Shown here: positions 16,971-49,723 of the stretch, piece by piece
How the letters are laid out: each line of letters opens with the position of its first letter
Numbering within the stretch: the first letter of the stretch is position 1
The notes under the pieces: generated by a model
The model's input: only the letters and a program-made list of their open reading frames with translations
Told to the model about the DNA's origin: nothing
The model's database searches: none
Origin: an uncultured Lachnospiraceae bacterium
GTDB lineage: Bacteria; Bacillota; Clostridia; Lachnospirales; Lachnospiraceae
Direction of reading: 5' to 3'
DNA length: 64,000 bases
Assembly: GCA_946537305.1 (NCBI GenBank)
Contig: CAMNFR010000002.1
Span: 48,564-112,563, forward strand
Made by a program: the position numbers and the translations under genes

Positions 16971-16998
16971 AAACGATAGGGTGAAAGGGGGAGAAAAC

Positions 16999-19452
16999 AT
17001 GGCATTGACACAGGAAAACCGGAGGAAGCTGGAAGACTTAGCTTTGGAGAAGGGGGGACTTTTCCCGCAGGCGGAGCTGTTCGGCGATATGCCTGTGCTT
17101 TTTGTAGGACTGGGCGGCTTGGGAGTGCGCACGCTGCAGGTGATCCGGCGGAATATACAAGGGAGAGAAGGCGCCGCCGAGAAGGCTTTCTTTTTAGCCA
17201 TTGACAGCGATGAACATGATCTCCAGGCATATCGCGATGGCATTCATGTCGCAGATGCCGGAATGAATGAGGTGATATCCATATTTGCGCCTGGTATTGT
17301 ACCAGGGCTTTTCGGCCCCAATGGGGCTGGTGGCATACGGAAAAACGGACGTTTATTGCTGACAGCAGGCCACAAATATGAAGCAATACAGAATTATCTG
17401 AGCAGATGTGTTATGCGGATTGAATCTATACTGCATGGGATGGGGAAATTTCAGGTCATCCTAATTTCCGGTACGGGCGGCGGAACGGGCGGCGGAATTG
17501 TGGTCGATGTGGCTTATATAATCCGAAATGCAATGATGCATCTGGGAGTAGCAGCGGATCGCTATCTGCTGCAAGGGTTTCTGTTCCTGCCGGATGTAAT
17601 GTCCGGAATACCAGGGCTGATGATGGATTATGCGCAGCGGAAGATGATTGCCGCAAACGGTTATGCTGCGCTGAAAGAAATAGATTACTACCTACAGCCG
17701 CTCGCGGAACGTGAGCCTTATGTGCTGGAATTGCCGGGGCAGACGGTGACTTCAGAGGCAGCTGTACTGGACCAGTGCAAGCTCATCTCTGGGAAGACGG
17801 CTGCAGGGAACTTTCGCAGTACAGATCGGACCGTGCAGATGGTCGGGGATTGTCTGGCAGAACTAACGGCGGAAATCCATATGCCGCCCGGAAACGAAAT
17901 GCCGCTGCAATATTTGTCCGGGAATGGCTATCAAATGCTTCTCTTCGAAAAAAAGGAGATACCGGAGCGGGAAGTGCTCACGTGGACTGCGAGTCAGATC
18001 TGGCAGCAAATGATGGAGGCGTGGAGTGTCCAGGGACATCAACTGGAGCAGGCAGGGCGGCATGTGCTGGCAGGAATCCTTATGAACGACGGTCCCTCCC
18101 TTATGAACTTTGCCTTGCATAGGCTGGGGTATGATGGACAGGCTTTTCGGGCGGAGGCTATAGAGGCAGAGCCGTTTCCTACACGGGCACAACTGTTAGA
18201 TGATCCGGAATATGGTTTTAGACGGGCGGCAGAAGTGGCGGAAGTATGGAGAGGACGTATCCTGAAAAGGCTGCCTGAGCTGGAAACGGATATTCGAACG
18301 ATCATCCGGGAGAGGCTGAACAACTGCCTGGATAGGGGACCGTTCTTCGTGGCCGCCTTGCTGGATGGGAATCGTTCACACCTGTATAATAGAGGAGAAC
18401 GAGCCTGGCCGGGAATCATTCATTTCTTGAACGTGATGCGGGAATCAATGAATGAGATGGCACAGAACGCGATGCGTCGTTTTGAAATTGAGCGGCACCA
18501 GTTGCCGGAGCTGGCTGTCCGGGCATCTTCTCCTTTCGCCGGCAGAGCAGTAAAAAGTGCGTATATGGAGGAATGCTGCAATATAGCAGAGGGCCTCATC
18601 ATATATGAACTTCTGTCACGGGTCATGATCGATGTGCTGGGGCGTCTACAGAGAGAGCTGACAGGGGATCTAATAGTTAGGTGGGAGCCATATCAGGAGA
18701 TTGTTGAATATGTGGAACGAATTCTGAAGGATGATGCGGAAGCGGTTTACAACGCAGGTGTCGGAATACCGAATGAGGACGCTTTGATTGATCTGCCGGA
18801 GGCAACCGGTCAGCGGATCCGAGCGGTTCTGCACGAAATAGCAAATCCGAATCAGGTGAAATTGATTTCACATTGTATCAGTAATTCCATGCGCCTTCAT
18901 CCGGGTTGGTGGGGGGATGTCCGGGAAAATGAGGAATTCCGGGCAGCCTCTGAGATACGGGATATATTCCAGGGATATCTCCAGGGTTCATTGGAACCTC
19001 AGTTGCCGGAGAAGCTGATTATGATCTCCCGGTTTCCCGGTCATCTTGATGTCCAACAGGTAAATAACGAGTGGAACATGAACGGAACTGTTCGGCACAA
19101 TGCGCTGCAGCAGGCTGCTGATGAGATCATAGCTGCTTTTTCAGGAACGATGGCTGCGCTGCTGCCGGGTGGAGTAACACAGAAAACGTTATTCCTGGCG
19201 CCGGCGAGCACACCGGATCTTACGTCAAGAGTGACTGTGCTGCTGCCGCCGGATACCCTGAGAGGGGTGTATATGGGCGGTGCGCCAAGATATACATTGG
19301 CAGGCATACGTTATCCGGTTGCATTTTCGACGATTCCGGATATCGAAGAATACGCAAGGTTCTATCAGCAGGAACCGACAATGCCTGGGCTTCATCTGGA
19401 TGAAGAGACTCAGCGCTGGCACGATTATCATCCTTCGGGGATGTCAGTATAG
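16999..19452 (+). CDS. Tubulin/FtsZ-superfamily GTPase-like protein (Tubulin_2 / FtsZl-1-like), paralog 1
   Basis: I prefer ATG 16999 (SD aaggggga) over GTG 16981. VLFVGLGGLGVRTL is a T1-like loop. ISGTGGGTGGGIVVD (17470-17496) matches the GGGTG[ST]G signature. NGYAALKEIDYY is shared with paralog 2, and both start MAL..(6)..KL..L.L.KGG. Confidence 0.8.
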   Translation: MALTQENRRKLEDLALEKGGLFPQAELFGDMPVLFVGLGGLGVRTLQVIRRNIQGREGAAEKAFFLAIDSDEHDLQAYRDGIHVADAGMNEVISIFAPGIVPGLFGPNGAGGIRKNGRLLLTAGHKYEAIQNYLSRCVMRIESILHGMGKFQVILISGTGGGTGGGIVVDVAYIIRNAMMHLGVAADRYLLQGFLFLPDVMSGIPGLMMDYAQRKMIAANGYAALKEIDYYLQPLAEREPYVLELPGQTVTSEAAVLDQCKLISGKTAAGNFRSTDRTVQMVGDCLAELTAEIHMPPGNEMPLQYLSGNGYQMLLFEKKEIPEREVLTWTASQIWQQMMEAWSVQGHQLEQAGRHVLAGILMNDGPSLMNFALHRLGYDGQAFRAEAIEAEPFPTRAQLLDDPEYGFRRAAEVAEVWRGRILKRLPELETDIRTIIRERLNNCLDRGPFFVAALLDGNRSHLYNRGERAWPGIIHFLNVMRESMNEMAQNAMRRFEIERHQLPELAVRASSPFAGRAVKSAYMEECCNIAEGLIIYELLSRVMIDVLGRLQRELTGDLIVRWEPYQEIVEYVERILKDDAEAVYNAGVGIPNEDALIDLPEATGQRIRAVLHEIANPNQVKLISHCISNSMRLHPGWWGDVRENEEFRAASEIRDIFQGYLQGSLEPQLPEKLIMISRFPGHLDVQQVNNEWNMNGTVRHNALQQAADEIIAAFSGTMAALLPGGVTQKTLFLAPASTPDLTSRVTVLLPPDTLRGVYMGGAPRYTLAGIRYPVAFSTIPDIEEYARFYQQEPTMPGLHLDEETQRWHDYHPSGMSV

Positions 19453-20234: not shown

Positions 20235-20283
20235 AGTCTTATTATGGATTTGCGAATGATGTCGCAAAAGATCGGGGGATCAT

Positions 20284-23200
20284 ATGGGTTTTGATGAAAT
20301 GGGAGGCGGCTTTGATGGCGGGATGGAAAGTGTCAGCGAAGCACCTTCCATTTCTGAGGTTCCGGAGATCAGTGAAAGCATAGAAGAACCGGCTGAGGTG
20401 GATTTCGGAGATCTGGAGGTCCCGGAAGAGATGCCGGCGGAAGTCGGGGAGATGGAAGAAATCGGGGAGTCTGATTTTGAGGATCTGGACTTCGGCGAAC
20501 TGGACGAAATGCCGGAAGAAGGATTGGAAGATATCCCGGAAGACAGTCTGGACTTCGAAATGGAAGATGATTTCGAAGACATTCCGGAGGAGGATATCGA
20601 GGACATTCCAGAAGATATCGAGGATATTCCTGAGGATATTGAGGACGTTCCAGAGGAGATCGAGGATATTCCGGAGGAAGAAATCGAAGAGGAGATCGAG
20701 GACATTCCAGAAGAAGAGATCGAAGATATCCCTGAGGAAGAGCTTGAAGAAGAAATCGAGGATATCCCTGAGGAAGAACTCGAAGATATCCCAGAGGAGG
20801 AACTCGAAGAGGAAATAGAAGATATTCCAGAGGAGGAACTCGAAGAAGAGATCGAGGACATTCCAGAAGAAGAGATAGAAGAGGAGCTCGAGGATATCCC
20901 TGAGGAAGAGCTCGAAGAAGAGATCGAGGACATTCCAGAGGAGGAACTCGAAGAAGAGATCGAGGACATTCCAGAAGAAGAGATAGAAGAGGAGATCGAG
21001 GATATTCCTGAGGAAGCGCTTGAAGAAGAGATCGAGGACATCCCTGAGGAAGAACTCGAAGATATCCCCGAGGAGGAACTCGAAGAAGAGATCGAGGACA
21101 TTCCGGAAGAAGAGATAGAAGAGGAAATCGAGGATATTCCTGAGGAAGCGCTTGAAGAAGAGATCGAGGACATCCCTGAGGAAGAACTCGAAGATATCCC
21201 CGAGGAGGAACTCGAAGAAGAGATCGAGGACATTCCAGAAGAAGAGATCGAAGAGGAGATCGAGGATATCCCAGAGGAGGAGATCGAAGAAGAGATCGAG
21301 GACATTCCAGAGGAGGAGATCGAAGAAGAGCTCGAGGATATTCCTGAGGAAGAACTCGAAGAGGGGATCGAGGATATCCCTGAGGAGGAACTTGAAGAGG
21401 AAATAGAAGATATCCCCGAGGAAGAACTCGAAGAGCAAGCTGAAGAAGAGCTCGAAGAACAAGCCGAGGAAGAACTCGAAGAGCAAGCTGAAGAAGAGCT
21501 CGAAGAACAAGCCGAGGAAGAACTCGAAGAACAAGCTGAAGAAGAACTCGAAGAGCAAGCTGAAGAAGAGCTCGAAGAGCAGGAAGAGCTCGAAGAGCAA
21601 GAAGAACTCGAAGAGCAGGAAGAGCTCGAGGAGCAGGAAGAGTTAGAAGAACAGGAAGAACTCGAGGAGCAGGAAGAACTCGAAGAGCAAGAGGAACTCG
21701 AGGAGCAGGAAGAGCTCGAAGAGCAAGAAGAGCTCGAGGAGCAGGAAGAGCTCGAAGAGCAGGAAAAACTCGAAGAGCAGGAAGAGTTAGAAGAGCAGGA
21801 AGAGCTCGAAGAGCAGGAAGAGTTAGAAGAACAGGAAGAGCTCGAAGAGCAGGAAAAACTCGAAGAGCAAGAAGAGTTAGAAGAGCAGGAAGAACAGGAA
21901 GAGCTCGAAGAGCAGGAAGAACTCGAGGAGCAGGAAGAACTCGAGGAGCAGGAAGAGTTAGAAGAACAGGAAGAGCTCGAAGAGCAGGAAAAACTCGAAG
22001 AGCAGGAAGAGTTAGAAGAGCAGGAAGAGCTCGAAGAGCAGGAAGAGTTAGAAGAACAGGAAGAGCTCGAAGAGCAGGAAAAACTCGAAGAGCAAGAAGA
22101 GTTAGAAGAGCAGGAAGAACAGGAAGAGCTCGAAGAGCAGGAAGAACTCGAGGAGCAGGAAGAGTTAGAAGAACAGGAAGAACTCGAGGAGCAGAAAGAG
22201 TTAGAGGAACAGGAAGAGCAGGAAGAACTTGAAGAACAGGAGCGTGAGGAAGAGATTCTGGAATTGAAAAAAGTGTCGGAGGAAACAGAAGAAGTCTCCG
22301 AGCAGGAAATGTTCCTCCCCGCTGAAATGCAGGAACACTTCCAGAAAGAAAACGTGACTCTGGATGAGCATCTGGCTATGTACAACGAAGTACAGCAGCA
22401 GATGTCTGCTTTGGATGCAGAAAAAACTGCGATGGCGGAAAGCCGCGCAGAGGCAGAGGCCCTTCTGTCTGATGAAAACCTGACTGATGAGCAGCGTGCC
22501 ATCCTGGAGGAGTCGCTGGAGACGATGGATGCCCGGACCGCTGAAATGGAGCAGCAGCAGGAAGATTGCGACAAGCAGATGCAGATGCTTCAGACAGAGC
22601 GCTATGAAATGGAGCAGATCAGCAGTGCGGAAATGCGGGAGAACGAGGGCACCAGAGAAGCTCTTCTCGAGCAGGCTGCGGAACAGCATGAAAAGTTTGA
22701 AGATGCTCTGGACGGGAAGGACAGCGAAGCGTTCGTAGAAGAATGTAAAGACACGGTGGAGCAGCTGCAGGAGCAGGAAGCGGTCGTTAAGGACGCCAAA
22801 GAACTGAAATTCCAGGAAATCTACGAGTATGTGACCTCTCACAATATGGACCGGTTCGATACAGCGAATGATCCATATTACCGGCATTTGATGGAAGAAT
22901 ACCGCGCCCTTTCTGAACAGGAGAGCGCCGTTCACGGCGAAGCCGCCCGTCTGGATGCTCAGGCCATGTCGGTAGCTCTGACGCAAGAACTGCCCTACCA
23001 GTCTGCGCCGACAGAGCTGCCGCCTCACGAATTCCATACTAGTGTGTATTCCGATGAAGAATTGATGCGTGAAAAGCCGGAGAAGACCGGAACAAACATA
23101 GAAGAACTGTCGGAAGCGGAGGATGAAGCGGCCGAAGAAGCAGAGACAGATGCGGTGGCGGAAATTCCTGAGAAGGAAGTGCAGGAGTCTCTCTCGGAAG

Positions 23201-25224
23201 TGCAGGAGAGCAAGGCACAGGAAGTACAAGAGGCCATCGAGAACGGAACGGATGATCCGGAAAAAACGGATTATTTTGTAGACGAAGTCCGTGCAAAAGA
23301 AGCGCTGGAAGGTTTTTCCCGGGAAACATGGGAAAAGATGACAGTGGAGGAGAAGCAGGAGCAGATCCAAAAACTGGCAGAGTACAACAAGGAAATTCTT
23401 GGAATAGATCCGGATATCCGGGTAGAGTATTATCACAGTCAAGAGCCGGGAGACTGTGGGCATTACTCCGAAAAAGACGGCGTGGTCTATATCAATGCGG
23501 ACAACCTGGAGGACGGTGCGGAGACCGCAGATACGATTGCACACGAACTCCGTCATGCTTATCAGTATGAAAGAGCCAAGAAGCTGGAAAATGACAGAGA
23601 TGTTGCCTTTGCGCAGAATCTGAGACCGGGCGGATATATATCACCGGAAACAGATCTGGATGCATATTATGACCAGCCGGTAGAGGCGGATGCATTTGCC
23701 TATGGAGAACGTTTTGGCGATTATGTAAAGTCGATGGATTCGTCTGCGGCGGCGGAAGTGACGGCCCGGCCTGTGGAAAAAACGGATGCCCCCGAAAAGA
23801 AGGAAGTCGAAAAGGAGCAGACGCCGGAGGGTCTTTCCAAAGTGGAAAAGAGTCCGGAACGGCTGGAGCAGGAAAAGCTACATAAACGGCTGGAAGGAGA
23901 AGAGCTTCGGGAAATCAAGGAAACCATCCGTCCGATCTATGAGAATGCCCGGGAAGTGGGTGAAGCAGATCAGGCACTGGAGTACTACAAGGAGCACTTT
24001 GACATCGAAAGCGGTCATATTGAGAAAGTGGCGGAGAAATCGCTGGAAGCGGCCGACTCTTTTGAGGAATTGTTCAGGGCGGAGGATTATGATGGTCTTT
24101 ATTCTCCGGACATTGATCGCAGAACGCTTCAGACAATGGCGTACTTTCATGATACAGGCATGGACGGCGGGATTGAGGCGGCCAATTATGCTGAAGAACG
24201 AGCTTCTTATATAGAAAAACACGCCGGTGAACTATCAGAAAAGACCGGAGCAGAGAAGACCGAGGAAGAGCGCGGTGCGGAATTTGATGAGAGCATCCGC
24301 AAAAATCATTCACTGCAGTCAGCGGTCCATGTCCTGGAACACCGGGAACAGCTGGAAGCCATGGGCGTCGATCCGGATACCGTAGCGGTCGGATGTTTTA
24401 TGCACAGCAAGAGCTGTTCCGGAATGAAGAATCTGGCTGGCGGCGGAAAAGAATGGGGCACCTCCCTGGAGAAAATAGAGGCGGCCGTTAAAGAACATAA
24501 TGAGAAACATCCGGAGGAACCGATTACCTTCGACCGCGGCTGCCTGTTTAACGAAGACGGTACAGCGGATGAAAAGAAACTGGCACAGATGAGAAGCTAC
24601 TGTGCCTGCCTGCGTGTAGGTGATGCTTACGGACATGATTATCAATCGGTGGAGACACAGGGAGGAAAACGCGTTGATATAGAAAAAACAACGCTTTCTG
24701 TGCCCCCGGAGGATACCGCGAAGAAGGTACAGGCAGAGGAACTTCGGCAGCGCCTGGAAGGTATTCCTGAAGATGACAAAGTACAGGCATATCGGAAAGC
24801 AGCGTACTATCAGGAAGTTCAGGGCATGAAGATTTCCGTGGACGGCGTGGAACTGACGAATGAGAATGACCCGAAGGGCATAGCCCGGATGTATGCTGCC
24901 GGAGAAAAGAATTTCCGTGAACTAAAGACGGAGACGGCATCCAAAGAAGGTACGGCTGAAATGACGCATTCCATCACACTGGTCGATGGCAATGACAGTG
25001 TATACTGTACCCAGGAATGTATCGATGAGCGAATCAAGGAGTTGAATACGATTTGCGTGGAGGCGCCTCAAAGCGGGAAAAAGCCGGAGGATCTGAAGAA
25101 AGCAAATATGAAGGTCGTTCTGCACATCGGGAAAAACTGCGATGAGCGGGTTTTGAAAAGCTATGAGAAGTACGCAGACCGTGTAGAAGCAACGTATAAT
25201 ATTAAAATGGAGATTCGGGAATGA
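20284..25224 (+). CDS. Giant hyper-acidic tandem-repeat protein with HExxH zincin-like motif and HD-domain-like region
   Basis: 1646 aa. Residues ~80-650 are almost pure E/D/I/L/P/Q repeats. AHELRHAYQYE (HExxH at 23542-23556) is followed by QPVEADAFAYGERF. The HD-like pattern is SGHIEKVAEKS...(about 45 aa)...MAYFHDTGMDG (HD at 24148-24153), followed by further His/Asp clusters. Confidence 0.85.
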   Translation: MGFDEMGGGFDGGMESVSEAPSISEVPEISESIEEPAEVDFGDLEVPEEMPAEVGEMEEIGESDFEDLDFGELDEMPEEGLEDIPEDSLDFEMEDDFEDIPEEDIEDIPEDIEDIPEDIEDVPEEIEDIPEEEIEEEIEDIPEEEIEDIPEEELEEEIEDIPEEELEDIPEEELEEEIEDIPEEELEEEIEDIPEEEIEEELEDIPEEELEEEIEDIPEEELEEEIEDIPEEEIEEEIEDIPEEALEEEIEDIPEEELEDIPEEELEEEIEDIPEEEIEEEIEDIPEEALEEEIEDIPEEELEDIPEEELEEEIEDIPEEEIEEEIEDIPEEEIEEEIEDIPEEEIEEELEDIPEEELEEGIEDIPEEELEEEIEDIPEEELEEQAEEELEEQAEEELEEQAEEELEEQAEEELEEQAEEELEEQAEEELEEQEELEEQEELEEQEELEEQEELEEQEELEEQEELEEQEELEEQEELEEQEELEEQEELEEQEKLEEQEELEEQEELEEQEELEEQEELEEQEKLEEQEELEEQEEQEELEEQEELEEQEELEEQEELEEQEELEEQEKLEEQEELEEQEELEEQEELEEQEELEEQEKLEEQEELEEQEEQEELEEQEELEEQEELEEQEELEEQKELEEQEEQEELEEQEREEEILELKKVSEETEEVSEQEMFLPAEMQEHFQKENVTLDEHLAMYNEVQQQMSALDAEKTAMAESRAEAEALLSDENLTDEQRAILEESLETMDARTAEMEQQQEDCDKQMQMLQTERYEMEQISSAEMRENEGTREALLEQAAEQHEKFEDALDGKDSEAFVEECKDTVEQLQEQEAVVKDAKELKFQEIYEYVTSHNMDRFDTANDPYYRHLMEEYRALSEQESAVHGEAARLDAQAMSVALTQELPYQSAPTELPPHEFHTSVYSDEELMREKPEKTGTNIEELSEAEDEAAEEAETDAVAEIPEKEVQESLSEVQESKAQEVQEAIENGTDDPEKTDYFVDEVRAKEALEGFSRETWEKMTVEEKQEQIQKLAEYNKEILGIDPDIRVEYYHSQEPGDCGHYSEKDGVVYINADNLEDGAETADTIAHELRHAYQYERAKKLENDRDVAFAQNLRPGGYISPETDLDAYYDQPVEADAFAYGERFGDYVKSMDSSAAAEVTARPVEKTDAPEKKEVEKEQTPEGLSKVEKSPERLEQEKLHKRLEGEELREIKETIRPIYENAREVGEADQALEYYKEHFDIESGHIEKVAEKSLEAADSFEELFRAEDYDGLYSPDIDRRTLQTMAYFHDTGMDGGIEAANYAEERASYIEKHAGELSEKTGAEKTEEERGAEFDESIRKNHSLQSAVHVLEHREQLEAMGVDPDTVAVGCFMHSKSCSGMKNLAGGGKEWGTSLEKIEAAVKEHNEKHPEEPITFDRGCLFNEDGTADEKKLAQMRSYCACLRVGDAYGHDYQSVETQGGKRVDIEKTTLSVPPEDTAKKVQAEELRQRLEGIPEDDKVQAYRKAAYYQEVQGMKISVDGVELTNENDPKGIARMYAAGEKNFRELKTETASKEGTAEMTHSITLVDGNDSVYCTQECIDERIKELNTICVEAPQSGKKPEDLKKANMKVVLHIGKNCDERVLKSYEKYADRVEATYNIKMEIRE
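20575..22240 (+). repeat. In-frame three-tier coding tandem repeat array (about 24-36-bp EDIPEE-type units, 24-bp EELEEQAE units, 18-bp EELEEQ units)
   Basis: Read directly from the sequence. IEDIPEEE(L/I)EEE-type units span ~20575-21420. EELEEQAE x6 spans ~21421-21570. EELEEQ (occasionally EKLEEQ / EEQ) spans ~21571-22240, with higher-order periodicity marked by the EKLEEQ variants. Confidence 0.9.
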
Positions 25225-25934
25225 TCATACAAAAGAAAAACGAAAAGAAGCGGACAGGTTATCTTTCGGTATTTGATCTGAACCAAAGCCTGCCGCGGCC
25301 GGATGGACAGGCGGGAGCGGAGATTCTTTTTGCCATCATCGAAAAAGAATCGATTCCGATCAGCCGTATCACGCTGGAGTATGAAAAGGACATTCATGGC
25401 GGGTACGGCAAGGAACACTTTAGCAGGCAGGGATTTTTGCAGAAATACGCATCCTGTGACTGGTTTCGGCAGAGTGGGCGCCTGCAGGCCTTGGAAATCT
25501 GGGAGATAGAACTCTCGGAGGGAAGTCTGCTGATCGGGAACATGGGCTCTGTGGTGAAAGTCCTGAGCGAAAACGAAGCAATGGATTTCACACGGTTCTT
25601 CACGAATATAGAAGAGGACACCTTCCGGTATCATTCCTTCCCGCAGCAGCTGGCAGATGATCTGATACAAAAAGAAGGTATGAATCTCCGGAGAGCGGTA
25701 GAATCTCTTCAGAAACTGAGTGAATATCCGGATATCTATCAGGAATATATCGCCGGTGGAAAAGATGGCGCGGCAGGACATTCGAACCCTGTTACAGTGG
25801 AAGGATATACGGCAGAAAGAATCATGCAGGAAGTGAAACTGCATCCCATCGGAGCTTATCTGATGCTGGTAAAACTGAGGAAGGATCCGGAAAAGGCCAA
25901 AAAGACCCTGGCAAGGGGAATTGTCCGGAAATAA
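25221..25934 (+). CDS. Hypothetical protein, translationally coupled to the giant acidic protein gene
   Basis: 237-aa ORF. Its ATG (25221) overlaps the upstream stop (ATGA junction). No recognised family. Confidence 0.65.
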   Translation: MIIQKKNEKKRTGYLSVFDLNQSLPRPDGQAGAEILFAIIEKESIPISRITLEYEKDIHGGYGKEHFSRQGFLQKYASCDWFRQSGRLQALEIWEIELSEGSLLIGNMGSVVKVLSENEAMDFTRFFTNIEEDTFRYHSFPQQLADDLIQKEGMNLRRAVESLQKLSEYPDIYQEYIAGGKDGAAGHSNPVTVEGYTAERIMQEVKLHPIGAYLMLVKLRKDPEKAKKTLARGIVRK

Positions 25935-29250: not shown

Positions 29251-31002
29251 ATGAGCGATAACGGCGGCAGTAATGCCAAGAAGATGGAGTTTCACAGAGT
29301 CCACTGCCCGCGCTGCGGAAGAACCATGCTCGCCAATGAGCTGGCATTTGATTTCGGAGAAATCATAAATGTGGCACTGGAGAAGGCGAAGAACCGGAAA
29401 TTCGGGCATAATGAGGAATGGTACGATCTGACCAATCTGAACCTCTGCCTGTACCTGGACCTGCGGGATCTGATGACTTCATATGGTCTCTCTCAGGCTC
29501 CGAACGGAACGTACCAGGGCATGTTTACCTTTACCACCAAGGATCTGGGCGATCAGCTTCTGCGTCTTGCCGATTCCGCCAACCCCAACATGTCCATTGC
29601 AATCCTGGGCTCCAGCAATAATCTGATTGAATATGAAAAGCTGACCCGCTTTATGAGCAAATCCAGCGATGTGGATGTGATGGAACTGGCAGAGCGTATT
29701 CAGGAACTTGCCATTCGGATTCAGAAGAACCCCAACGCCGTGATCGCCAGTTTTCATGTAACAGTCAATCTGCAGAAGGATGATCGGGGAAATTATTTTG
29801 CCAACCGACTGCTTATAAAATTTGATGACGGTCAGCTGCAGAATGTGACACGCTTTATCTGCAAGGGTGAAAAAGGAGCGCCTTGCGGTAAAGTGCTCTA
29901 CGGCCACGCGGGTCAGTTTAAAGAGATTATTATTGGCCTGGCCGGTACAGCCCGTGTTGGTAAGACCGCGTACCTGGCGTCGCTGCTGGCCAGCATTCTG
30001 CGGCAGGGCAACGGTATACAGAAGCTGGGACACGATCAGAATGTGATCACTAATATTGCTTATGTAGATGAGGCATATGACCGGTTCAAGAAGGACCTGC
30101 TGGATCCGTATGCCAACTGTACCAAGATTACGAAGACCCAGTACATCTTTGATAAGGTGGGAGATACCGAGGCCATTTCCCTCTTCTCCCTGACCTTTGC
30201 CATCAACAACCGGAAAAAATATATTTTTACCTTCATCGATATGCCCGGTGAAGTATACGATGACGGAGCAGAAGGCGCTAACGTGGTCATCAATAACCGC
30301 CAGATCATCTCAGATGCCAGCATGATCTGGCTGTGCATCGCGCCGGCACAGATTGCAGGCGGGGCGGTAGTGGCCGGCGGAGACCAGGTAAATACAGATC
30401 TGGGCAACGCCTTTGCCAACCTGGAAAAGACCATGCAGGCAATCAACCGCTCAAGACAGATCCCGACCGCAGTGCTGATCACCTGCAGCGATCTGATCGA
30501 AGATAAATACGAGCTGTTTGATTCTACATTCAATCCTTTTGCTTCACAGGAAAATCCGATCCGTACCATGGATAGCAAGAATAAAAAGACGCCCTGGGTC
30601 AGCGAGGCCGGGGCACTGTTCTACACCAACATGGAATGGTTCATTCGGAATGCGTTCTCTTACCTGAAGACCAATCCGGGACTGCCCGCCAGTATCGAAA
30701 ATATCTTTGGCGGATTTACCCCCTTTGCGGTGGCTTCCTACGGAAAGCAGATCGATAACCCGCTGGCGGTAAAGGCCGGATTTGACATTCCTACGCCTTC
30801 TATGATCGAGGGGCCGTTCCTTTGGACGCTGGGTATTCTGGGACTGATTCCGGTCTGCAAGGAGGAATTGGTCACACGTACCCGCCGGGTCAGAAAAGGC
30901 CTCTTTGGGCACCGGGATGAGACGTATCAGGAAACAGAGATCGTAAATGTTGAGGGAAGAGAGCGCAGACGTCTCTTCTACTATTCGGGACAGGAGGATT
31001 GA
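29251..31002 (+). CDS. Zinc-ribbon-containing P-loop GTPase-like protein, paralog B
   Basis: 583 aa. It starts with an N-terminal CPRCG and the second half-ribbon is degenerate (CKGEKGAPCG). Walker A is GLAGTARVGKT (29935-29967), G3-like is FIDMPGE, and the G4 position reads LITCSD. LAFDFGE and PFLWTLGILGLI are conserved with paralog A. Confidence 0.8.
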   Translation: MSDNGGSNAKKMEFHRVHCPRCGRTMLANELAFDFGEIINVALEKAKNRKFGHNEEWYDLTNLNLCLYLDLRDLMTSYGLSQAPNGTYQGMFTFTTKDLGDQLLRLADSANPNMSIAILGSSNNLIEYEKLTRFMSKSSDVDVMELAERIQELAIRIQKNPNAVIASFHVTVNLQKDDRGNYFANRLLIKFDDGQLQNVTRFICKGEKGAPCGKVLYGHAGQFKEIIIGLAGTARVGKTAYLASLLASILRQGNGIQKLGHDQNVITNIAYVDEAYDRFKKDLLDPYANCTKITKTQYIFDKVGDTEAISLFSLTFAINNRKKYIFTFIDMPGEVYDDGAEGANVVINNRQIISDASMIWLCIAPAQIAGGAVVAGGDQVNTDLGNAFANLEKTMQAINRSRQIPTAVLITCSDLIEDKYELFDSTFNPFASQENPIRTMDSKNKKTPWVSEAGALFYTNMEWFIRNAFSYLKTNPGLPASIENIFGGFTPFAVASYGKQIDNPLAVKAGFDIPTPSMIEGPFLWTLGILGLIPVCKEELVTRTRRVRKGLFGHRDETYQETEIVNVEGRERRRLFYYSGQED

Positions 31003-31003
31003 T

Positions 31004-33262
31004 ATGCAGCTTTTGTATGGAAATGACGGCGTCAATTACAGGGTGATCGATAAATCCGCCGAAATGACGGACGGCGTGCAGAAAACGCTGCTGGGATCCT
31101 ACTCCCGCTACGATTTTGTGACGGATCCGAAGGTCTATTCCTCCGTGGCGCAGGAGCCGGAAGCGATAACCTATGTTTCCACTAACCTGGACAATCAGCT
31201 GAAAAGCGACCAGGTGGTGGTCTGCAAAATGGGGCACATGCGTAATTTTTCCTCTCCCAGCTATTATTTCCACGGTCTGGTGAAGGAAGTCCCTGCGGAT
31301 TATTATAAGAAGGACTTTTTTGAACTTTTCGGCTATCAGTTCATTCCGGATGTGGAGGCCAATTCCGCACATTACAGCGGGGGAACGGTGGATGGATATC
31401 AGTTTCCCGTACAGCCGGTCAACCAGAAAGCATTGACCGACGAACAGCTGATCGTGATTCTGGCAAGCTTTCTGTCCAATGACAAAAAGGGACAGAAAAC
31501 AAAGATCCTGTGCGATGCTTCCGGGGATGATTATAACCGTCGCAGCCGCGAGATCCTGGCGTCGATCTATCATTATCTCCCCTATGAACTTCGCAAACGC
31601 TATGGCTTCAAATCTTACAGCCAGGATGAGAAGAATCTTCCGGCGCGTGTTGCCTTTGTGGTTTTCCCGAAGGAAGAAGTACACGATGTGACTGGATTTG
31701 TCACCCTGCAGGAATCCCGGGGAGACATAGCGCATTCTGTGGAGCGCGAATACCTTGATTACGCAGCCTATCTGGTGGAAAAACTGGATGATTCACAGCG
31801 TACGGAACATTTTGAGACCATGTCCAAGCTGGCGAGTAACGGATATCTCCGGATCAAGGACTGCGTGGATTATTACAACAACCTGAAGAACTGGTCCAAC
31901 GGGACGCAGGAAGCGCTGCTGCCGGACTGGATTCAGTATATCGATCAGAACAGCTTCCGCAAAGGGCCGCTCTATGAGATGCTGCTGAAGATCATTGTCG
32001 CTAAGGTGGATAACGCATATTACAATGATTACCTGTTTGATCAGACATTGAGGCTGTATCAGGAGAACGTATACAATCTGTCTCCCCAGGCGGCCAAGAC
32101 CATGCGCTTCGCGGACTGCCTGGATGAGATCTTTATCGAACCTGCCCGGTTCCATGAGTGGTATCAGGAGCAGCTGCAGGCAAAGATCAATATGCTTCGA
32201 CCGGAACAGAAGGAATCTCCGGTCTATATGGCAGGCTTTTATGAGGAAGAGATCCGCGCCTTGGAACAGGTAGATATCATGAGCGAGGAGCTGAAGGAGC
32301 TTCTTCAGACAGAGGTGCAGAATCTTCGGGCAAAGATCCGCAGCAACGCGGCCAATGTGGAAGAGCAGAAGGACCGGGAGGTTGAGGAACTGCATCGCCA
32401 GGTCAGCAAGATCGGCAGAGTGGAGGATCTGGTGTCGATGGTCGAGATCCTGCGCCGCAATATTCAGTTTGCTGAAAATAAAGAAGTGCTCACGGCGAAT
32501 GTGGAAGAGTGGCTGGCGGAACATATCCCGGACAGAATCACTTCCGAAAGCGAGTTGCGGATCTGGAAAGAACAGGTGGAGAAGCTTGGTGGAAATATTT
32601 CCGCGGAAATGCAGGAAAACATCCTGAGGGAGCTGGCGAGAGAAGAACAGCTTCAGATCCAGGCGAGAGAGTCTCGCAAATGTGTCATCCGGCCGGGGGA
32701 GGTCCTGAGATCCTATCGGAACCTGGTGGAATATCTGGCTAAAGGCGTGCTGCAGCCAGAGGATAAGGTGATAGCTGAGATCGGGAAAAGAGCACCGAGT
32801 GAATATAAAGCTTCTACCATGTTGAAAATGCTTAGCTTTATCCTCTATCCGGAGGATGAGTCCCAGGGCAGTGTCTCGATTGCATGGAAGCGCGTGTTCC
32901 TGGAAGAGAAGCTGATGACGGCGGAACATGCTGAATATCTGCTGAAGGATCCGGAAGCAGAGGAGGAGTTTGTTAAAAGAGTAGTGCACTTCTTCCTGAA
33001 GGAAGATTCCGTCAGGATCTCCGGCATCTATCTGGCAAGACTGATTCAGCGGTATCATCCCGAGCTGAATGCCATGTTCCGAAAACTCTATGAAAAGGGA
33101 GAGGACGAGGAGTACTTCTTCTCGGATGAACTGAAAACGCTGTCAGCATCTGCCCCCAAACGGAGCAACTGGGCTTATGAGACAGAGTCGGAGCCCCAGG
33201 AGGATCATTCCAAACAAGGAAAGAAAGGATCACTGGGGGGCCTGTTCGGAAGGAAATGGTAA
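31004..33262 (+). CDS. Large hypothetical protein (coiled-coil-rich C-terminal half)
   Basis: I prefer ATG 31004 (SD ggacaggagg; 1 nt after the upstream stop) over the ORF-track start 30947. That gives 752 aa with no recognised family. The N-terminus MQLLYGNDGVNYRVIDKS is worth testing against GTPase-associated (GAP1-type) N-domains. Confidence 0.7.
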   Translation: MQLLYGNDGVNYRVIDKSAEMTDGVQKTLLGSYSRYDFVTDPKVYSSVAQEPEAITYVSTNLDNQLKSDQVVVCKMGHMRNFSSPSYYFHGLVKEVPADYYKKDFFELFGYQFIPDVEANSAHYSGGTVDGYQFPVQPVNQKALTDEQLIVILASFLSNDKKGQKTKILCDASGDDYNRRSREILASIYHYLPYELRKRYGFKSYSQDEKNLPARVAFVVFPKEEVHDVTGFVTLQESRGDIAHSVEREYLDYAAYLVEKLDDSQRTEHFETMSKLASNGYLRIKDCVDYYNNLKNWSNGTQEALLPDWIQYIDQNSFRKGPLYEMLLKIIVAKVDNAYYNDYLFDQTLRLYQENVYNLSPQAAKTMRFADCLDEIFIEPARFHEWYQEQLQAKINMLRPEQKESPVYMAGFYEEEIRALEQVDIMSEELKELLQTEVQNLRAKIRSNAANVEEQKDREVEELHRQVSKIGRVEDLVSMVEILRRNIQFAENKEVLTANVEEWLAEHIPDRITSESELRIWKEQVEKLGGNISAEMQENILRELAREEQLQIQARESRKCVIRPGEVLRSYRNLVEYLAKGVLQPEDKVIAEIGKRAPSEYKASTMLKMLSFILYPEDESQGSVSIAWKRVFLEEKLMTAEHAEYLLKDPEAEEEFVKRVVHFFLKEDSVRISGIYLARLIQRYHPELNAMFRKLYEKGEDEEYFFSDELKTLSASAPKRSNWAYETESEPQEDHSKQGKKGSLGGLFGRKW

Positions 33263-36818: not shown

Positions 36819-39800
36819 ATGGCTTTAAGTCCGCTGAAAAAAGAAAAGCTGGCGCAGCTGGAGCTGAATAAGGGAGGTGTGGCGTTCGTATCGCAGAAAT
36901 CCTCTGTGACGCCGAATCCCACGGTGATCATCAGTCTGGGCGGCCTGGGTGGAAAGACCCTGAATGCCCTGAAGGGCAAATTTGTGCGTGAGATCGGGGA
37001 GAGCGATCATATTTATTTCCGAATGATCGATACGTCTCTTCCGGACATGGATGATCTGTGTAAGGTAAAGTCGGACGGAACCATGAATACTTCTCCGAAC
37101 GCGCATCTGGAACAGATAGAGGCGGTGCCGATCTTTGATCCTGCGATCGCAAATATCCTGAAGGCCGGCTCCATTCCGCCCAACATCAAAAACTGGCTGA
37201 ATCCGGCGCTGATCGGTACGGAACTGGATAACTCCGGTGCCCAGCAGATCCGCCAGATCGGCCGCGCGATGCTGACCAACGACACCGTGTATTTCAATGT
37301 CCGCACCAAGCTGAGCTCTGCAATTCTGAGTGCCATCGGCCAGATGCCGTTTGGCGGCAATGTGGACGTCATCCTGATCGCCGGTGTATCCGGCGGTACC
37401 GGCAGCGGCACGGTGATCGACCTCAGCTATATGATACATGACATCTTCAAATCTGCGGGAAGCACCAGCTATAAGCTGGCGGGCTATATCTTTACCCCGG
37501 ATGCTCAGTTCATGATTCCGCAGATCAAGAATAACCCTACGACGCTGCTGAATCTGAAGAAGAACGGATATGCGGCCCTGAAGGAAATCGATTACTTCAT
37601 GAATATCCAGGAGACACAGAGTGTCTATAAGCTGGAGCTCGGCTCTTCGGCGGTCACCTCCACCAAGAACATCTTCAGCAGCTGCACGCTGGTCTCCGGC
37701 TATGCCTCCGGCGGCGGCATGAACGATACCGATGTGACTATCGGCCGTCTGACCGATCAGCTGATGGATATGCTGACGGATATTACCATCACGGACAAGG
37801 GCGGCATGCCGCAGCAGATGTCCGCCTCCATTTTGAGCAATGAGAACGCCAACCTGAATTCCTGGTTCGGACTTCATCCGGCGCGCCGGATCTATCACCG
37901 CTATGCTTCTTACAAATATCAGGTGCTGGGGTACAATTCCATCGTGATTCCCCGGGATGAGATCCTTGCGTACTGCGTGAACAAAATCTATGCCGGCGTG
38001 CTGCAGGAGTTCCAGAATTTCTCGCTGGTGAACAAGCAGATGATGCAGAAGGTGTTCGCGCAGACGAATGTGATCAACCCGGATACCTTTGTGCAGTTTG
38101 CGACAACCATCAACGCGAATAACCCGATCAACCGCACGCTGGTCATGGACGGCGGCTACACCAAGTCTATGATCAAAAATGATCCCATGATCGCCTATAA
38201 CGATGCGGTGGATCTGGCGCATGCGGAGCGCGTGAAAATCAATGGCGGCTTCCAGGCCATGGTGGAGGATCATGTTTATAAGGCACTGTCCCAGGAAGTG
38301 GATAAGATCTTCAATCAGTTTGGTCCGTACGTGGCCATGAAGGCCATTGAGCATAAGCACACGGAACTGAGCGTGGGAGATCCCAAGGAACCCTTCCCCG
38401 GTATTATTGAAATGCTGGAGCGGCAGAGCGAAAAGCTGATGGCCCGCGCCAATGCGGCGAACAACGCATTTAACAATGGCGGGCATCAGCAGATCCAGGC
38501 GGCGGCCAATGAGGCTATGGGCGGTCTGTTCGGGACCAACCACGCCGCGGTGAACAACTATGTGGAGATCTGCTGCAACCAGGCGGTGACCTCTCAGATT
38601 GATGTGGTCCTGTTTAAGACCCTGTCCGATGCGCTCTACAATGTGGCGGTCCGCATGAACAAGCTGAATTCCGACCTCTTTGAGGTGTATACCAGCATCC
38701 TGACCGAAATCCAGAAAATCCTGAACCAGGACGGCCAGTACTTCTCGAATTCCAATATGTCCCAGGTGGGCAATAACCGCTACTTCTCCATCGATATCAT
38801 TAAGAGCGGCAAGGGGAAAGCTGACCGGCTGGAAAAATACCTCGATAGCTTTATCTCTACAGTATCCGTACAGGAGCTGGCGCAGAACTTCATTAAGAAG
38901 ATGCGTGATAACCGTGACAAGTGGGTGGCCCAGAACAGCGAAAATGATTTCGACGTGGTGGCCGAGGTCCGCGATCTGATGGATGACTGCTTGAATTCCA
39001 ACAAGATGACCACGGATATTGTAGAAAAATTTGTGACGGTCGCCTACAGCACCAAGGACATGAAGCCGGAAGAACTGGATGCCATCTGGGATGACAACAC
39101 GCCGACCGGTCCTAAGATGCAGGCACTGGCCTCCGCCGCGAATGAGATCTACCAGCAGCTCTCCAACGGAGCGCAGCCCATGGCGAATTCCACGGGTCAG
39201 ATCCCGCTGAACAGCTTTGCTGGACAGCTGTTTATCAGTACGCTGAAGGATACGCCGCAGCTGACAAATATCCTGAATAATCTGGTCAAGGGGGCGCAGG
39301 GATTTACGCCGGCGACCAGTGATTCCAAGAATAAATTCATCTTTACCCGTCAGTATATGAGCCTTCCCATGTATATTCTGTTGGGCATGGGTGAGTACAA
39401 CCAGGTATACGTGGAAAACCCGAGCGCGGGACGCCACATGGACGAGAACAACCAGAACTGGGGCCGGTTCCCGAACCCCTACACCATCGATTCCGTGGCG
39501 ATCGATCTGGCGACTGCCCAGCGGCCGGCAGAGGATATCGAATCGTATCCGGATTACAAGGTGCTGACCGATGTGAAGGCCAAAGCCACGGACGGCGTAA
39601 AGAAGTATGGGTTCATCAATGTGCAGGTGGATGCCACCGGTATGGGACATATGTATCTGAATGACATTACAAATACGCCGGCGGATATGGAAGCCTTTAA
39701 AGAGGGATTCTACAATGCGCTGATGAAAAAGAAGAATCTGGATGTCATTGAGTACATGAAGCAGAACGGGTTTATTATCAATCCGATTGAGGTGACACGC

Positions 39801-44315: not shown

Positions 44316-44336
44316 TATGTAGAGGGGGAAAAGAGT

Positions 44337-49695: not shown

Positions 49696-49723
49696 CAGCA
49701 TCTTTTGGCGAAAGGGTATAACG

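What the first reader, a model, noticed from the sequence alone, without database searches (positions are those of the whole stretch)
20284..25224. 1646-aa hyper-acidic protein combining ~570 residues of Glu-rich repeats with a zincin-like HExxH module and an HD-domain-like module
SEEN: after a short acidic N-terminus (..ESDFEDLDFGELDE..), residues ~80-650 are pure repeats. A coiled-coil-like Glu/Gln-rich region follows. Next comes ..GHYSEKDGVVYINADNLEDGAETADTIAHELRHAYQYE.. (HExxH at 23542-23556), with QPVEADAFAYGERF about 40 aa downstream. The HD-like pattern follows: GHIEKVAEKS...MAYFHDTGMDG (24148-24153), then HSLQSAVHVLEH, CFMHSKS and LRVGDAYGHD.

ESTABLISHED: HExxH with a downstream E-x-x-A-x-x-F-type element is typical of minimal zincins (the ImmA/IrrE/DUF955-like arrangement). 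H..HD..D defines HD phosphohydrolases.

INFERENCE: the protein is a bifunctional effector or processing enzyme tethered to a giant polyanionic spacer. The polyanion could mimic nucleic acid, bind divalent cations, or interact electrostatically with basic surfaces of filament proteins. I know of no characterised protein with this combination.
Basis: partly seen in the sequence, partly recalled or inferred. Interest (0 to 1): 0.8.

Follow-up and report, generated by a model that had tools for sequence, protein, structure and literature searches.

The report
Hyper-acidic zincin–HD protein beside HerA-like ATPase
This is a real 1646-residue bacterial protein with a huge glutamate-rich disordered tail, a probable zinc protease and a probable metal-dependent phosphohydrolase. 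It belongs to an unstudied family that always sits near a HerA-type motor ATPase, here inside a predicted tubulin/GTPase immune island.

Summary
ORF 20284-25224 (+) encodes 1646 aa, 32% Glu, with net charge -359 across residues 81-650 in three tandem-repeat arrays.

HExxH and HD are only chance-level as bare strings. They lie, however, in two conserved, confidently folded modules.
- Gluzincin-like peptidase, residues 990-1154: HExxH and E1134 are invariant. The best fold matches are minigluzincins and IrrE, and Pfam DUF6782 scores just under its cut-off.
- Histidine/aspartate-rich module, residues 1195-1646: it just reaches Pfam's HD threshold, but no solved structure resembles the model.

All roughly 300 relatives retrieved are unannotated. 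An acidic tail in front of the zincin is a family-wide trait, and this protein is the extreme case. The HD module is optional.

The gene is tied to a small downstream partner (25221-25934) and a HerA/FtsK-like DUF87 ATPase (45302-47989). Here this trio is embedded in the Firmicutes tubulin/DO-GTPase/GAP1/vWA island predicted by Kaur et al. (2020), whose text does not mention this protein.

The most likely role is the enzymatic effector or processing subunit of that NTPase machinery. The function of the tail is unresolved, and its repeat number differs between assemblies.

The parts
20284..25224 (+). Whole ORF, 1646 aa, hyper-acidic multi-domain protein
   Evidence: An identical gene lies on an independent contig, L033.
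20284..20565 (+). Non-repeat acidic N-terminus (residues 1-94). No signal peptide or TM segment.
   Evidence: The opening MGxxGFxGxDGG..E.VSE motif is shared with close homologues P0006, P0027 and P0029.
20566..21438 (+). Proline-containing acidic repeat array built on EDIPEE(E/L)(I/L)EEEI (27 DIPE), residues about 95-385
   Evidence: TRF periods of 24/36/60/132 nt; motif counts. It holds one of the three in-frame copy-number differences against L034.
21439..21582 (+). Six EEELEEQA units (24-nt period)
21583..22233 (+). About 37 EELEEQ units (18-nt period), residues 434-650
   Evidence: Two further in-frame copy-number differences against L034 fall at or inside this array.
22234..23250 (+). 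Acidic, probably helical middle region (residues 651-989). It carries the family-wide motif YVxxHNMxRFDTxxDPYY at nt 22810-22917.
   Evidence: Nearly invariant columns lie upstream of the zincin in A5. The same motif occurs in zincin-only relatives P0218, P0154 and P0156. The structure of this region was not predicted.
23251..23745 (+). Gluzincin-like metallopeptidase module (residues 990-1154). HExxH at 23542-23556; predicted third ligand E1134 at 23683-23685.
   Evidence: Invariant H/E/H/E in 29 relatives. AF2 gives a sheet plus helices at pLDDT above 80. Foldseek hits IrrE, selecase and jannalysin. Pfam DUF6782 E 6e-6. PHROG_87 metallo-protease E 1.1e-5.
23746..23865 (+). Disordered K/E-rich linker (residues 1155-1194)
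   Evidence: pLDDT below 50 for fragment residues 166-205. The alignment is variable here.
23866..25221 (+). HD-like metal-dependent hydrolase core (residues about 1230-1469; HD at 24148-24153) packed with a C-terminal alpha/beta subdomain (about 1470-1646)
   Evidence: AF2 pLDDT 96.1, pTM 0.94. Invariant residues H1238, H1245, H1289, D1290, H1342, H1374, D1447, E1511, G1540, E1541, N1543 and T1576. Pfam HD 22.9 bits against a cut-off of 22. No structural neighbour was found.
25221..25934 (+). Conserved downstream partner, 237 aa. Its start overlaps the stop of the target (ATGA).
   Evidence: A homologue lies directly downstream of every zincin-bearing relative whose downstream sequence was compared: L001-L005, L009-L011, L014, L016, L018. 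Only the C-terminal ~95 aa is conserved. No Pfam or PDB match.
45302..47989 (+). HerA/FtsK-like DUF87 ATPase, 895 aa. It is the conserved genomic partner of the family.
   Evidence: Pfam DUF87; PADLOC and NCBIfam HerA models. Walker A is at residue 414 and Walker B at 652. A homologue lies directly upstream of the family member in L009, L013, L016, L017 and L018, and within about 5 kb in L001, L003, L010 and L014.
16981..19452 (+). Tubulin_2 protein 1 of the island
   Evidence: Pfam PF13809, 116 bits
27367..31002 (+). Two DO-GTPase2 genes (27367-28908 and 29251-31002)
   Evidence: Pfam PF19993, 34.7 and 27.4 bits against a cut-off of 27
30947..33262 (+). GAP1-like protein
   Evidence: Pfam GAP1-M, 20.2 bits, below the cut-off of 24. 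Orthologues sit in the same position in L004, L005 and L009.
36819..40481 (+). Tubulin_2 protein 2 (1220 aa)
   Evidence: Pfam PF13809, 169 bits

Best explanation
**What it is**
The ORF encodes a genuine cytoplasmic multi-domain protein of an uncharacterised family. From N- to C-terminus it has:
- a disordered polyanionic tail, enlarged here by in-frame tandem repeats;
- a conserved helical middle region;
- a gluzincin-type Zn-metallopeptidase;
- a flexible linker;
- an optional second enzyme, most likely an HD-superfamily metal-dependent phosphohydrolase with its own alpha/beta lid.

**Conserved unit**
The family's conserved unit is a gene trio: a HerA/FtsK-like DUF87 ATPase, the acidic zincin protein, and a small partner protein. 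In this window the trio is built into the Firmicutes tubulin/DO-GTPase/GAP1-N2/vWA island, which has been predicted to be an NTP-dependent conflict (immunity) system.

**Most likely role**
The protein is the enzymatic output or processing subunit of this machinery. It would be held or regulated by the NTPases and the small partner, perhaps through the acidic tail. When the system fires, it would cut proteins (zincin) and a phosphoester substrate such as nucleic acid or nucleotides (HD-like module).

**Shown versus inferred**
- Shown: the domains, the conserved catalytic-type residues, the family-wide acidity, and the synteny.
- Inferred: catalytic activity, substrates, the immune role, and any role of the tail.
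For: **Conservation and folds**
- 33 full or partial homologues share 37-53% identity over the C-terminal 657 aa.
- 1007 cluster representatives score E<=1e-3, and each module also occurs on its own.
- Metal-ligand-type residues are invariant.
- AF2 models are confident.
- Zincin-type fold and profile matches; Pfam HD at threshold.

**Acidity**
- In 95 representatives, the region in front of the zincin has median D+E 31% and median net charge -88. The window is the extreme at -459; the next is -282.

**Synteny**
- The gene order target, partner, ~400-aa protein, DO-GTPase, DO-GTPase, GAP1-like, ~380-aa protein, vWA recurs in L004, L005, L006 and L009.
- In L009 the same gene set has its two halves swapped, so that DUF87 directly precedes the family member.
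- DUF87 followed by an acidic zincin and a 98-aa partner homologue occurs in L016, L017 and L018. DUF87 followed by an HD-only protein occurs in Olsenella L013.

**Defence-island flavour**
- A DUF4062-STAND NTPase lies upstream in the window.
- GmrSD lies nearby in L018, and integrases or a relaxase in L001, L016 and L019.
- The island type is described as a conflict system in PMC7159879 section 29.

**Precedent**
- A HerA ATPase paired with an enzymatic effector is an established defence design (HerA-DUF4297, PMC11291478).
Against: - No activity, phenotype or interaction has been tested for any family member.
- The immune role of the island is itself only a computational prediction.
- PADLOC has no model for the target, the partner, the GTPases or the tubulins.
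- The HD assignment lacks structural confirmation.
- In the window, DUF87 lies 20 kb from the target, and some loci (L002, L011) show no DUF87 within 10 kb.
- The window island is flanked by housekeeping genes, with no mobility genes seen.
- HD-only relatives also occur as secreted proteins in ABC-transporter loci and on viral contigs. That module is therefore not specific to this system.
Confidence: 0.5

Rival explanations
1. Regulatory protease rather than terminal effector. As with ImmA/ImmR or IrrE/DdrO, the zincin's job would be to cleave a cognate neighbour (the small downstream partner, or a tubulin, vWA or GAP1 component) and so switch the system on. The HD module would be an add-on in some lineages.
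For: The partner gene is strictly linked to the zincin module and not to the HD module. It is present next to zincin-only proteins (L009, L016, L018) and absent next to the HD-only protein in L013. The best fold match is PprI/IrrE, and PHROG_87 is a phage metallo-protease family. Kaur et al. propose peptidase steps that release effectors.
Against: No Peptidase_M78 Pfam hit was listed. The partner shows no HTH or any other recognisable domain. Nothing here explains the huge acidic tail.
Confidence: 0.2
2. The polyanionic tail is a nucleic-acid-like handle that the adjacent HerA/FtsK-type ring ATPase engages or threads. The ATPase would then unfold, activate, position or export the enzyme. The protein would be a client of a DNA-pump-like motor.
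For: An acidic, lysine-poor N-terminal IDR is near-universal in the family. The DUF87 ATPase, with intact Walker motifs, is the most consistently linked gene. HerA/FtsK ATPases normally translocate polyanionic DNA (established knowledge).
Against: This is pure inference and no complex was modelled. The HD-only protein next to DUF87 in L013 was not checked for an acidic tail. A classical AAA ATPase, also present in several loci, could equally be the unfoldase.
Confidence: 0.12
3. Cytoskeleton modulator. The acidic tail and zincin would act on the island's tubulin-like filaments, for example by trimming or capping them as tubulin carboxypeptidases act on eukaryotic tubulin.
For: Two Tubulin_2 genes lie in the island. 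There are weak Foldseek hits to MATCAP (probability about 0.2).
Against: The family also occurs in loci with no tubulin gene in the sequence retrieved (L001, L003, L016, L018). No basic partner surface is evident. The MATCAP match is not significant.
Confidence: 0.08
4. Counter-defence or polyvalent-type protein of a mobile element. An acidic DNA mimic would be fused to a peptidase and a phosphohydrolase, and it would act on a competitor's or host's defences.
For: Some loci lie beside integrases, a relaxase or a T4SS coupling protein. One relative carries a ParB-like DGRHR insert typical of polyvalent proteins. HD-only relatives sit on viral contigs next to a terminase-like ORF.
Against: No MPTase-PolyVal or ArdC/ArdA Pfam hit. 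The window island sits between housekeeping genes. The tight operon linkage is to cellular-type NTPase systems.
Confidence: 0.07
5. The HExxH and HD strings are chance motifs in acidic filler, and the protein is a purely structural or spacer protein.
For: The bare motifs are expected at about 0.13 (HExxH) and 1.8 (HD) per protein of this composition.
Against: The motif residues are invariant across dozens of diverged relatives, and they lie in high-confidence folded modules.
Confidence: 0.02

Closest known systems
Firmicutes tubulin-type GAP1-N2 DO-GTPase systems (Kaur, Burroughs, Iyer, Aravind 2020, eLife, PMC7159879)
   Same: The island has two DO-GTPases, a GAP1-like protein, two tubulin-family proteins with long C-terminal extensions and two vWA proteins, one of them multi-TM. 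This matches the published description.
   Different: The paper's main text does not mention an acidic zincin/HD protein, its small partner or a HerA/DUF87 ATPase as components. The figures and source data could not be read. The system itself has not been tested experimentally.
HerA-effector anti-phage pairs (HerA-DUF4297, Sir2-HerA; e.g. PMC11291478)
   Same: A HerA-family ATPase gene sits next to a gene for an enzymatic effector. The PADLOC HerA models hit the window's DUF87 protein.
   Different: The effector here is an acidic zincin with or without an HD-like module, not Sir2 or the DUF4297 nuclease. The ATPase is about 300 aa longer than the PADLOC HerA models and matches them only over the ATPase core. 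A third small partner and many further genes are involved.
Minimal gluzincins and ImmA/IrrE-type regulatory proteases (selecase, jannalysin, PprI/IrrE; Pfam DUF6782)
   Same: HExxH plus a downstream Glu on a helix, with a small sheet before the active-site helix. These are the best Foldseek and profile matches.
   Different: Scores are below family cut-offs (DUF6782 26.1 against 27; Foldseek E 0.2 or higher). There is no HTH substrate or partner. The module is always preceded by a long acidic IDR and a specific helical motif.
HD-domain phosphohydrolases (Pfam PF01966; PF24391 HD-CE)
   Same: The H..HD..H..H..D residue pattern is conserved. The Pfam HD model is matched at threshold, and many relatives also match.
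   Different: Foldseek, the PDB profile search and hhalign detect no similarity to solved HD structures. The core is fused to a conserved alpha/beta subdomain that has no match.
Acidic disordered DNA mimics and acidic repeat linkers (Ocr/ArdA-type DNA mimics; MamJ, HubP acidic repeats) - recalled from general knowledge, not tested
   Same: Extreme negative charge; repetitive; a possible role in competing with nucleic acid or tethering to filaments.
   Different: No sequence or fold relationship. Ocr and ArdA are folded mimics. The tail here is 570 residues of low-complexity repeat, and its length varies between assemblies.

Membership tests
Zincin / gluzincin metallopeptidases | HExxH on an active-site helix | tested here: met
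   H1087, E1088 and H1091 are invariant in 29 relatives. They lie in helix 89-111 of the model.
Zincin / gluzincin metallopeptidases | Third zinc ligand Glu on a downstream helix | tested here: met
   E1134 (fragment E145) is invariant and lies in helix 143-164, 43 residues after H1091. Its role as a ligand is inferred.
Zincin / gluzincin metallopeptidases | Zincin fold resembling solved members | tested here: inconclusive
   Foldseek's best hits are PprI 8sln (probability 0.90), selecase 4qhi (0.99) and jannalysin 4jix (0.98). E-values are 0.19-0.29, obtained with a two-module query.
Pfam DUF6782 (putative metallopeptidase) | Score at or above the curated cut-off (27 bits) | tested here: not met
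   26.1 bits, E 6e-6 for the window. Some relatives score better, best E 2.5e-8.
ImmA/IrrE (Peptidase_M78, COG2856) | Profile match to the family and an adjacent HTH repressor substrate | tested here: not met
   No M78 hit was listed at E<=1. The adjacent partner has no HTH or other Pfam match. Only a fold-level resemblance to PprI was seen.
HD-domain superfamily | Conserved H...HD...D metal-binding motif | tested here: met
   H1245, H1289-D1290 and D1447, plus H1238, H1342 and H1374, are invariant in 45 relatives.
HD-domain superfamily | Pfam PF01966 score at or above the cut-off (22 bits) | tested here: met
   22.9 bits, E 1.1e-4 for the isolated module. 16 of 45 relatives hit HD and 12 of 45 hit HD-CE. 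The margin is small.
HD-domain superfamily | Helical HD fold resembling solved HD proteins | tested here: inconclusive
   With a pLDDT-96 model, Foldseek against PDB gave a best E of 0.25; PDE10 and the 3irh HD protein reached only probability 0.02-0.05. BFVD gave nothing. The profile search of PDB sequences gave no hit. hhalign gave probability 1.5% against the YfbR family and 0.9% against SAMHD1.
HD-domain superfamily / zincins | Metal-dependent catalytic activity | not testable with these tools
   Needs a purified protein.
GAP1-N2 tubulin-type DO-GTPase system (context) | Paired DO-GTPases, GAP1, two tubulin-family genes and two vWA genes in one neighbourhood | tested here: met
   DO-GTPase2 34.7 and 27.4 bits; Tubulin_2 116 and 169 bits; VWA 53.6 and 47.5 bits. 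GAP1-M reaches only 20.2 bits against a cut-off of 24. The FNIII component was not checked.
GAP1-N2 tubulin-type DO-GTPase system (context) | The target protein is a described component of the system | tested here: not met
   It is not mentioned in the paper's text. The source data could not be read.
HerA-effector defence pairs | A HerA-family ATPase encoded next to the effector across lineages | tested here: met
   Adjacent or within about 5 kb in 9 related loci, and in the same island in the window. Absent within 10 kb in L002 and L011.
HerA-effector defence pairs | Effector of a known type (Sir2, DUF4297) or a PADLOC system model | tested here: not met
   No PADLOC hit for the target.
Polyvalent proteins of phages and conjugative elements | MPTase-PolyVal / LPD domains and a location in a phage or conjugative element | tested here: not met
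   No such Pfam hits. The window island is flanked by housekeeping genes.

The most novel reading that the evidence does not exclude
The family defines a new kind of motor-client pair. A HerA/FtsK-type ring ATPase, normally a DNA pump, would grip or thread a protein through a DNA-mimicking polyglutamate leader, and so activate, unfold or deliver a dual peptidase/phosphohydrolase effector. The leader's length would be tuned by rapid repeat expansion and contraction.
Probability: 0.1. Interest if true: 0.85.

Novelty: new variant of a known kind. Interest (0 to 1): 0.6.

Why it matters
- **A testable enzymatic subunit.** The tubulin/DO-GTPase/vWA islands of gut Firmicutes are known only from one computational survey, and no output mechanism has been shown. 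This protein, with its strict linkage to a HerA-like ATPase and a small partner, supplies a concrete enzymatic candidate, and the mutations needed to test it are obvious.
- **A large unannotated family.** An acidic disordered tail followed by a zincin appears in hundreds of clusters from gut metagenomes. This poses a general question: what does a polyanionic tail of hundreds of residues (about 570 here) do next to a DNA-pump-type ATPase?
- **A confident fold with no neighbour.** The second module is modelled at pLDDT 96 yet has no detectable structural neighbour. It is reused by cellular islands, secreted proteins and phages, so its substrate is probably something general and worth identifying.

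Tried and rejected
**HD fold and profile tests (none significant)**
- Foldseek of the 657-aa model and of the isolated HD-like model against PDB, and of the latter against BFVD. There were no significant matches for the HD-like module.
- HMM profiles of the HD core, the zincin module and the partner against PDB sequences. Nothing real was found.
- hhalign of the HD core against a YfbR-family alignment gave probability 1.5%, in a different register. The YfbR sequence had been verified against 2PAQ. hhalign against an unverified SAMHD1 fragment gave 0.9%, covering only the HD motif.
- A third homologue search with the HD-core profile, intended to reach annotated HD proteins, returned only 10 close relatives.

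**Database annotation**
- PADLOC, NCBIfam and PHROGs gave nothing for the target beyond a PHROG metallo-protease match to the zincin.

**Ideas about the acidic tail**
- DIPE as a family-wide short linear motif: it is enriched overall (21 observed against 5.1 expected), but absent from the closest full-length homologues. Rejected as a defining feature.
- A strongly basic partner in the island for electrostatic docking: none found.

**Searches that failed or added nothing**
- The first genome-contig scans failed or found nothing. A trimmed alignment then found 6 MAG loci.
- Literature searches for DUF6782 and HD-CE were uninformative.
- The supplement of PMC7159879 held no relevant text.

**Artefacts set aside**
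- The long antisense ORFs across the repeats (764 aa and 452 aa) were treated as by-products of the repeat composition.
Full report
**1. The observation**

ORF 20284-25224 (+) is open for 4941 nt and encodes 1646 aa. A GGGGGA ribosome-binding-like site lies just upstream. The protein is 32% Glu. Residues 81-650 are 64% D+E and 0.9% K+R, with net charge -359. The whole protein has net charge -518.

Tandem Repeats Finder and motif counts resolve three arrays:
- a proline-containing EDIPEE-type array with 27 DIPE;
- six EEELEEQA units;
- about 37 EELEEQ units.

As bare strings they are not significant. About 0.13 HExxH and about 1.8 HD are expected from composition. The question was therefore whether they are conserved and lie in folded domains.

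**2. The two C-terminal modules are real**

A search with the last 657 aa found 33 unannotated homologues, 26 of them covering both modules at 37-53% identity. An exhaustive HMMER scan of 1.84 billion cluster representatives found 1007 proteins at E<=1e-3. Each module also occurs alone many times.

AlphaFold2 with the family alignment gave pLDDT 88 for the 657-aa fragment. Only a 40-residue linker was disordered. The second module alone gave pLDDT 96.1 and pTM 0.94.

*Module 1 (residues 990-1154).*
- It consists of helices, a three-stranded sheet, the HExxH helix, and a later helix carrying E1134.
- H1087, E1088, H1091 and E1134 are invariant in 29 diverse relatives.
- The best Foldseek matches are PprI/IrrE, selecase and jannalysin (probabilities 0.90-0.99, E about 0.2-0.3).
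- Pfam DUF6782 'putative metallopeptidase' scores 26.1 bits against a cut-off of 27. Weaker matches are to M76 and SprT-like.
- PHROG_87 'metallo-protease' scores E 1.1e-5.
- I conclude that this is a gluzincin-like metallopeptidase of an undescribed subfamily. Membership of ImmA/IrrE proper is not shown.

*Module 2 (residues 1195-1646).*
- It has a helical core with invariant H1238, H1245, H1289, D1290, R1339, H1342, H1374, K1376, S1379, R1444 and D1447. H1349 is invariant in the 17-sequence subset.
- It also has an alpha/beta subdomain with invariant E1511, G1540, E1541, N1543 and T1576.
- Scanned alone, it reaches Pfam HD at 22.9 bits (cut-off 22; E 1.1e-4). Of 45 relatives, 16 hit HD and 12 hit HD-CE.
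- No structure-based or profile-profile test confirmed an HD fold.
- I therefore treat it as a probable, highly divergent HD-superfamily hydrolase, at roughly 70% confidence. A new metal-hydrolase fold remains possible.

**3. The acidic tail is a family trait, exaggerated here**

In 95 representatives that carry the zincin module, the preceding region has median D+E of 31% and median net charge of -88. K+R is often only 1-3%. The window protein is the extreme at -459; the next is -282.

Zincin-only relatives of 230-780 aa are essentially an acidic D/E/S/T-rich disordered region with periodic hydrophobic motifs, followed by the zincin. A mid-region motif, YVxxHNMxRFDTxxDPYY in the window, is shared across the family.

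The DIPE motif is enriched in some small relatives but absent from the nearest homologues. It is not a defining feature.

The repeat number is unstable or assembly-dependent:
- Contig L033 is identical to the window.
- L034, from another sample of the same subject, encodes 1511 aa. It differs only by three in-frame deletions of 44, 46 and 45 aa, one per repeat array.
- Four shorter contigs end inside the gene, 3' of the repeats.

**4. Genomic context**

The window's 10-51 kb region encodes the following:

| Coordinates | Product |
|---|---|
| 13056-16970 | DUF4062-STAND NTPase |
| 16981-19452 | Tubulin_2 |
| 19493-20143 | TM protein |
| 20284-25224 | the target |
| 25221-25934 | 237-aa partner (start overlaps the target's stop) |
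| 25974-27350 | 458-aa acidic protein |
| 27367-28908, 29251-31002 | two DO-GTPase2 proteins |
| 30947-33262 | GAP1-like protein |
| 33266-34405 | 379-aa TM protein |
| 34461-36722 | vWA |
| 36819-40481 | Tubulin_2 |
| 40500-42305 | 601-aa protein |
| 42309-43724 | multi-TM vWA |
| 43734-45257 | two small proteins |
| 45302-47989 | DUF87/HerA-like ATPase |
| 48046-49695 | YARHG protein |
| 49505-50809 | transglutaminase-like protein |

The flanks are housekeeping genes.

This matches the Firmicutes tubulin theme of the GAP1-N2 DO-GTPase systems predicted by Kaur et al. (PMC7159879, section 29). That paper's text does not mention an acidic zincin/HD protein, its partner or a HerA-like ATPase.

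Related loci show that the target is a conserved component:
- L004, L005 and L006 keep the order target, partner, ~400-aa protein, DO-GTPase, DO-GTPase, GAP1-like, ~380-aa protein, vWA.
- L009 has the full gene set with its two halves swapped. DUF87 there directly precedes a zincin-only family member.
- More distant members sit in smaller islands. One type runs HTH, 304-aa protein, DUF87, 580-aa protein, Zn-ribbon, 150-aa protein, AAA, target, partner (L001, L003, L010, L014).
- Another type runs Band7/Zn-ribbon protein, further genes, DUF87, acidic zincin, 98-aa partner homologue, further genes, AAA (L016-L018).
- In an Olsenella MAG, DUF87 is followed by an HD-only protein (L013).

The partner homologue follows every zincin-bearing member whose downstream sequence was compared, but not the HD-only protein. 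It therefore goes with the zincin or tail part. The window's DUF87 protein has intact Walker A and B motifs and matches HerA models over its ATPase core.

The MAGs found carry labels from several groups: Phascolarctobacterium, Lachnospiraceae, Erysipelotrichales, Olsenella and Anaerofilum. Several loci lie beside integrases, a relaxase or GmrSD. This fits horizontally mobile islands, as seen for defence systems.

**5. Mechanism**

The best-supported reading is that this is the enzymatic output or processing subunit of an NTPase-driven, probably immune, machinery. It would form a unit with a HerA-like ATPase and a small partner. The zincin would cut protein, and the HD-like module would cut a phosphoester substrate.

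Shown: the domains, the conserved residues, the family-wide acidity and the synteny. Inferred: the activities, the substrates, the immune role, and any regulation through the tail.

The rival explanations, with rough weights:
- an ImmA-like regulatory protease acting on the partner or on system components (0.2);
- the tail as a DNA-like handle for the HerA/FtsK-type motor (0.12);
- a modulator of the tubulin-like filaments (0.08);
- a mobile-element counter-defence or polyvalent protein (0.07);
- chance motifs (0.02, contradicted by the data).

The island encodes no strongly basic protein.

**6. Comparison with known systems, and novelty**

At superfamily level the protein works like a zincin peptidase and an HD-type hydrolase. 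At system level it resembles HerA-plus-effector defence pairs such as HerA-DUF4297 (PMC11291478). It also resembles the effector-bearing NTPase systems of Kaur et al.

It is not a demonstrated member of any curated family other than a threshold-level Pfam HD match. All relatives are unnamed.

I rate it a new variant of a known kind. It is an undescribed protein family and gene trio inside a predicted but uncharacterised class of system, and it carries an extreme, length-variable polyglutamate tail.

**7. Limits**

- No coordinates were available to inspect the metal sites.
- The middle region and the complexes were not modelled.
- The synteny rests on about 15 loci rather than a census.
- The immune function of the island type is itself untested.

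Noticed in passing
window 20926-21057, 21517-21654, 21754-21888 (residues 215-258, 412-457, 491-535) versus L034: A second assembly from the same subject encodes a 1511-aa version. It is identical except for three in-frame deletions, one per repeat array. This is either repeat copy-number polymorphism or assembler collapse. Four other contigs break inside the gene.
   Followed up: yes
window 20284-25221: The exact 1646-aa product is reported as absent from the protein collection, although contig L033 encodes it identically and all tested neighbours are present. The reason is unknown; gene calling or filtering of the repeat protein may be responsible.
   Followed up: partly
L020-L032 (IMG/VR viral contigs), e.g. 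L020 7695-9146, L024 7491-9125: HD-module-only relatives (28-31% identity) occur on viral contigs near a terminase-like ORF. They and several neighbouring ORFs begin with a shared basic motif (..YRxRRxxRLxxRFD.., often followed by W.T..G.H). This looks like a common targeting or packaging leader.
   Followed up: partly
L007 6672-7886, L008 2561-3775 (P0032, P0030): Stand-alone versions of the HD-like module carry a Sec-type signal peptide. They sit inside an ABC-transporter-like operon, next to a 1731-aa protein.
   Followed up: no
window 20242-21600 (-) and 20280-22574 (-): Antisense ORFs of 452 and 764 aa (Ser/Cys-rich and Phe/Leu-rich) run across the repeat region. They are almost certainly by-products of the GAA/GAG-rich repeats, not genes.
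   Followed up: partly
window 13056-16970: A 1304-aa DUF4062 plus STAND/AAA NTPase, with weak PADLOC hits to mad8 and Avs1b, lies immediately upstream of the first tubulin gene. It may be a separate defence gene or part of the island.
   Followed up: no
window 25974-27350: A 458-aa acidic protein (pI 4.45) has a PEPEPEPAPMPAPEPVPVPEP linker that gives spurious TonB hits. It is conserved after the partner gene in L004, L005 and L009.
   Followed up: partly
window 48046-49695, 49505-50809, 52548-54236: A Zn-ribbon/YARHG protein and two transglutaminase-core proteins lie at the distal end of the island. A YARHG protein also lies near the family member in L003.
   Followed up: no
P0154 (zincin-only relative, 1172 aa): It carries a ParB-like DGRHRIAAA insert between the acidic tail and the zincin, and a further C-terminal domain. 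This suggests that the family swaps accessory enzymatic modules.
   Followed up: no
L001 / L002: The same seven-gene block (target homologue plus six downstream genes) occurs in two different contexts. One is next to DUF87/AAA and a relaxase; the other lies between recG and peptidase genes with no DUF87 within 10 kb.
   Followed up: partly
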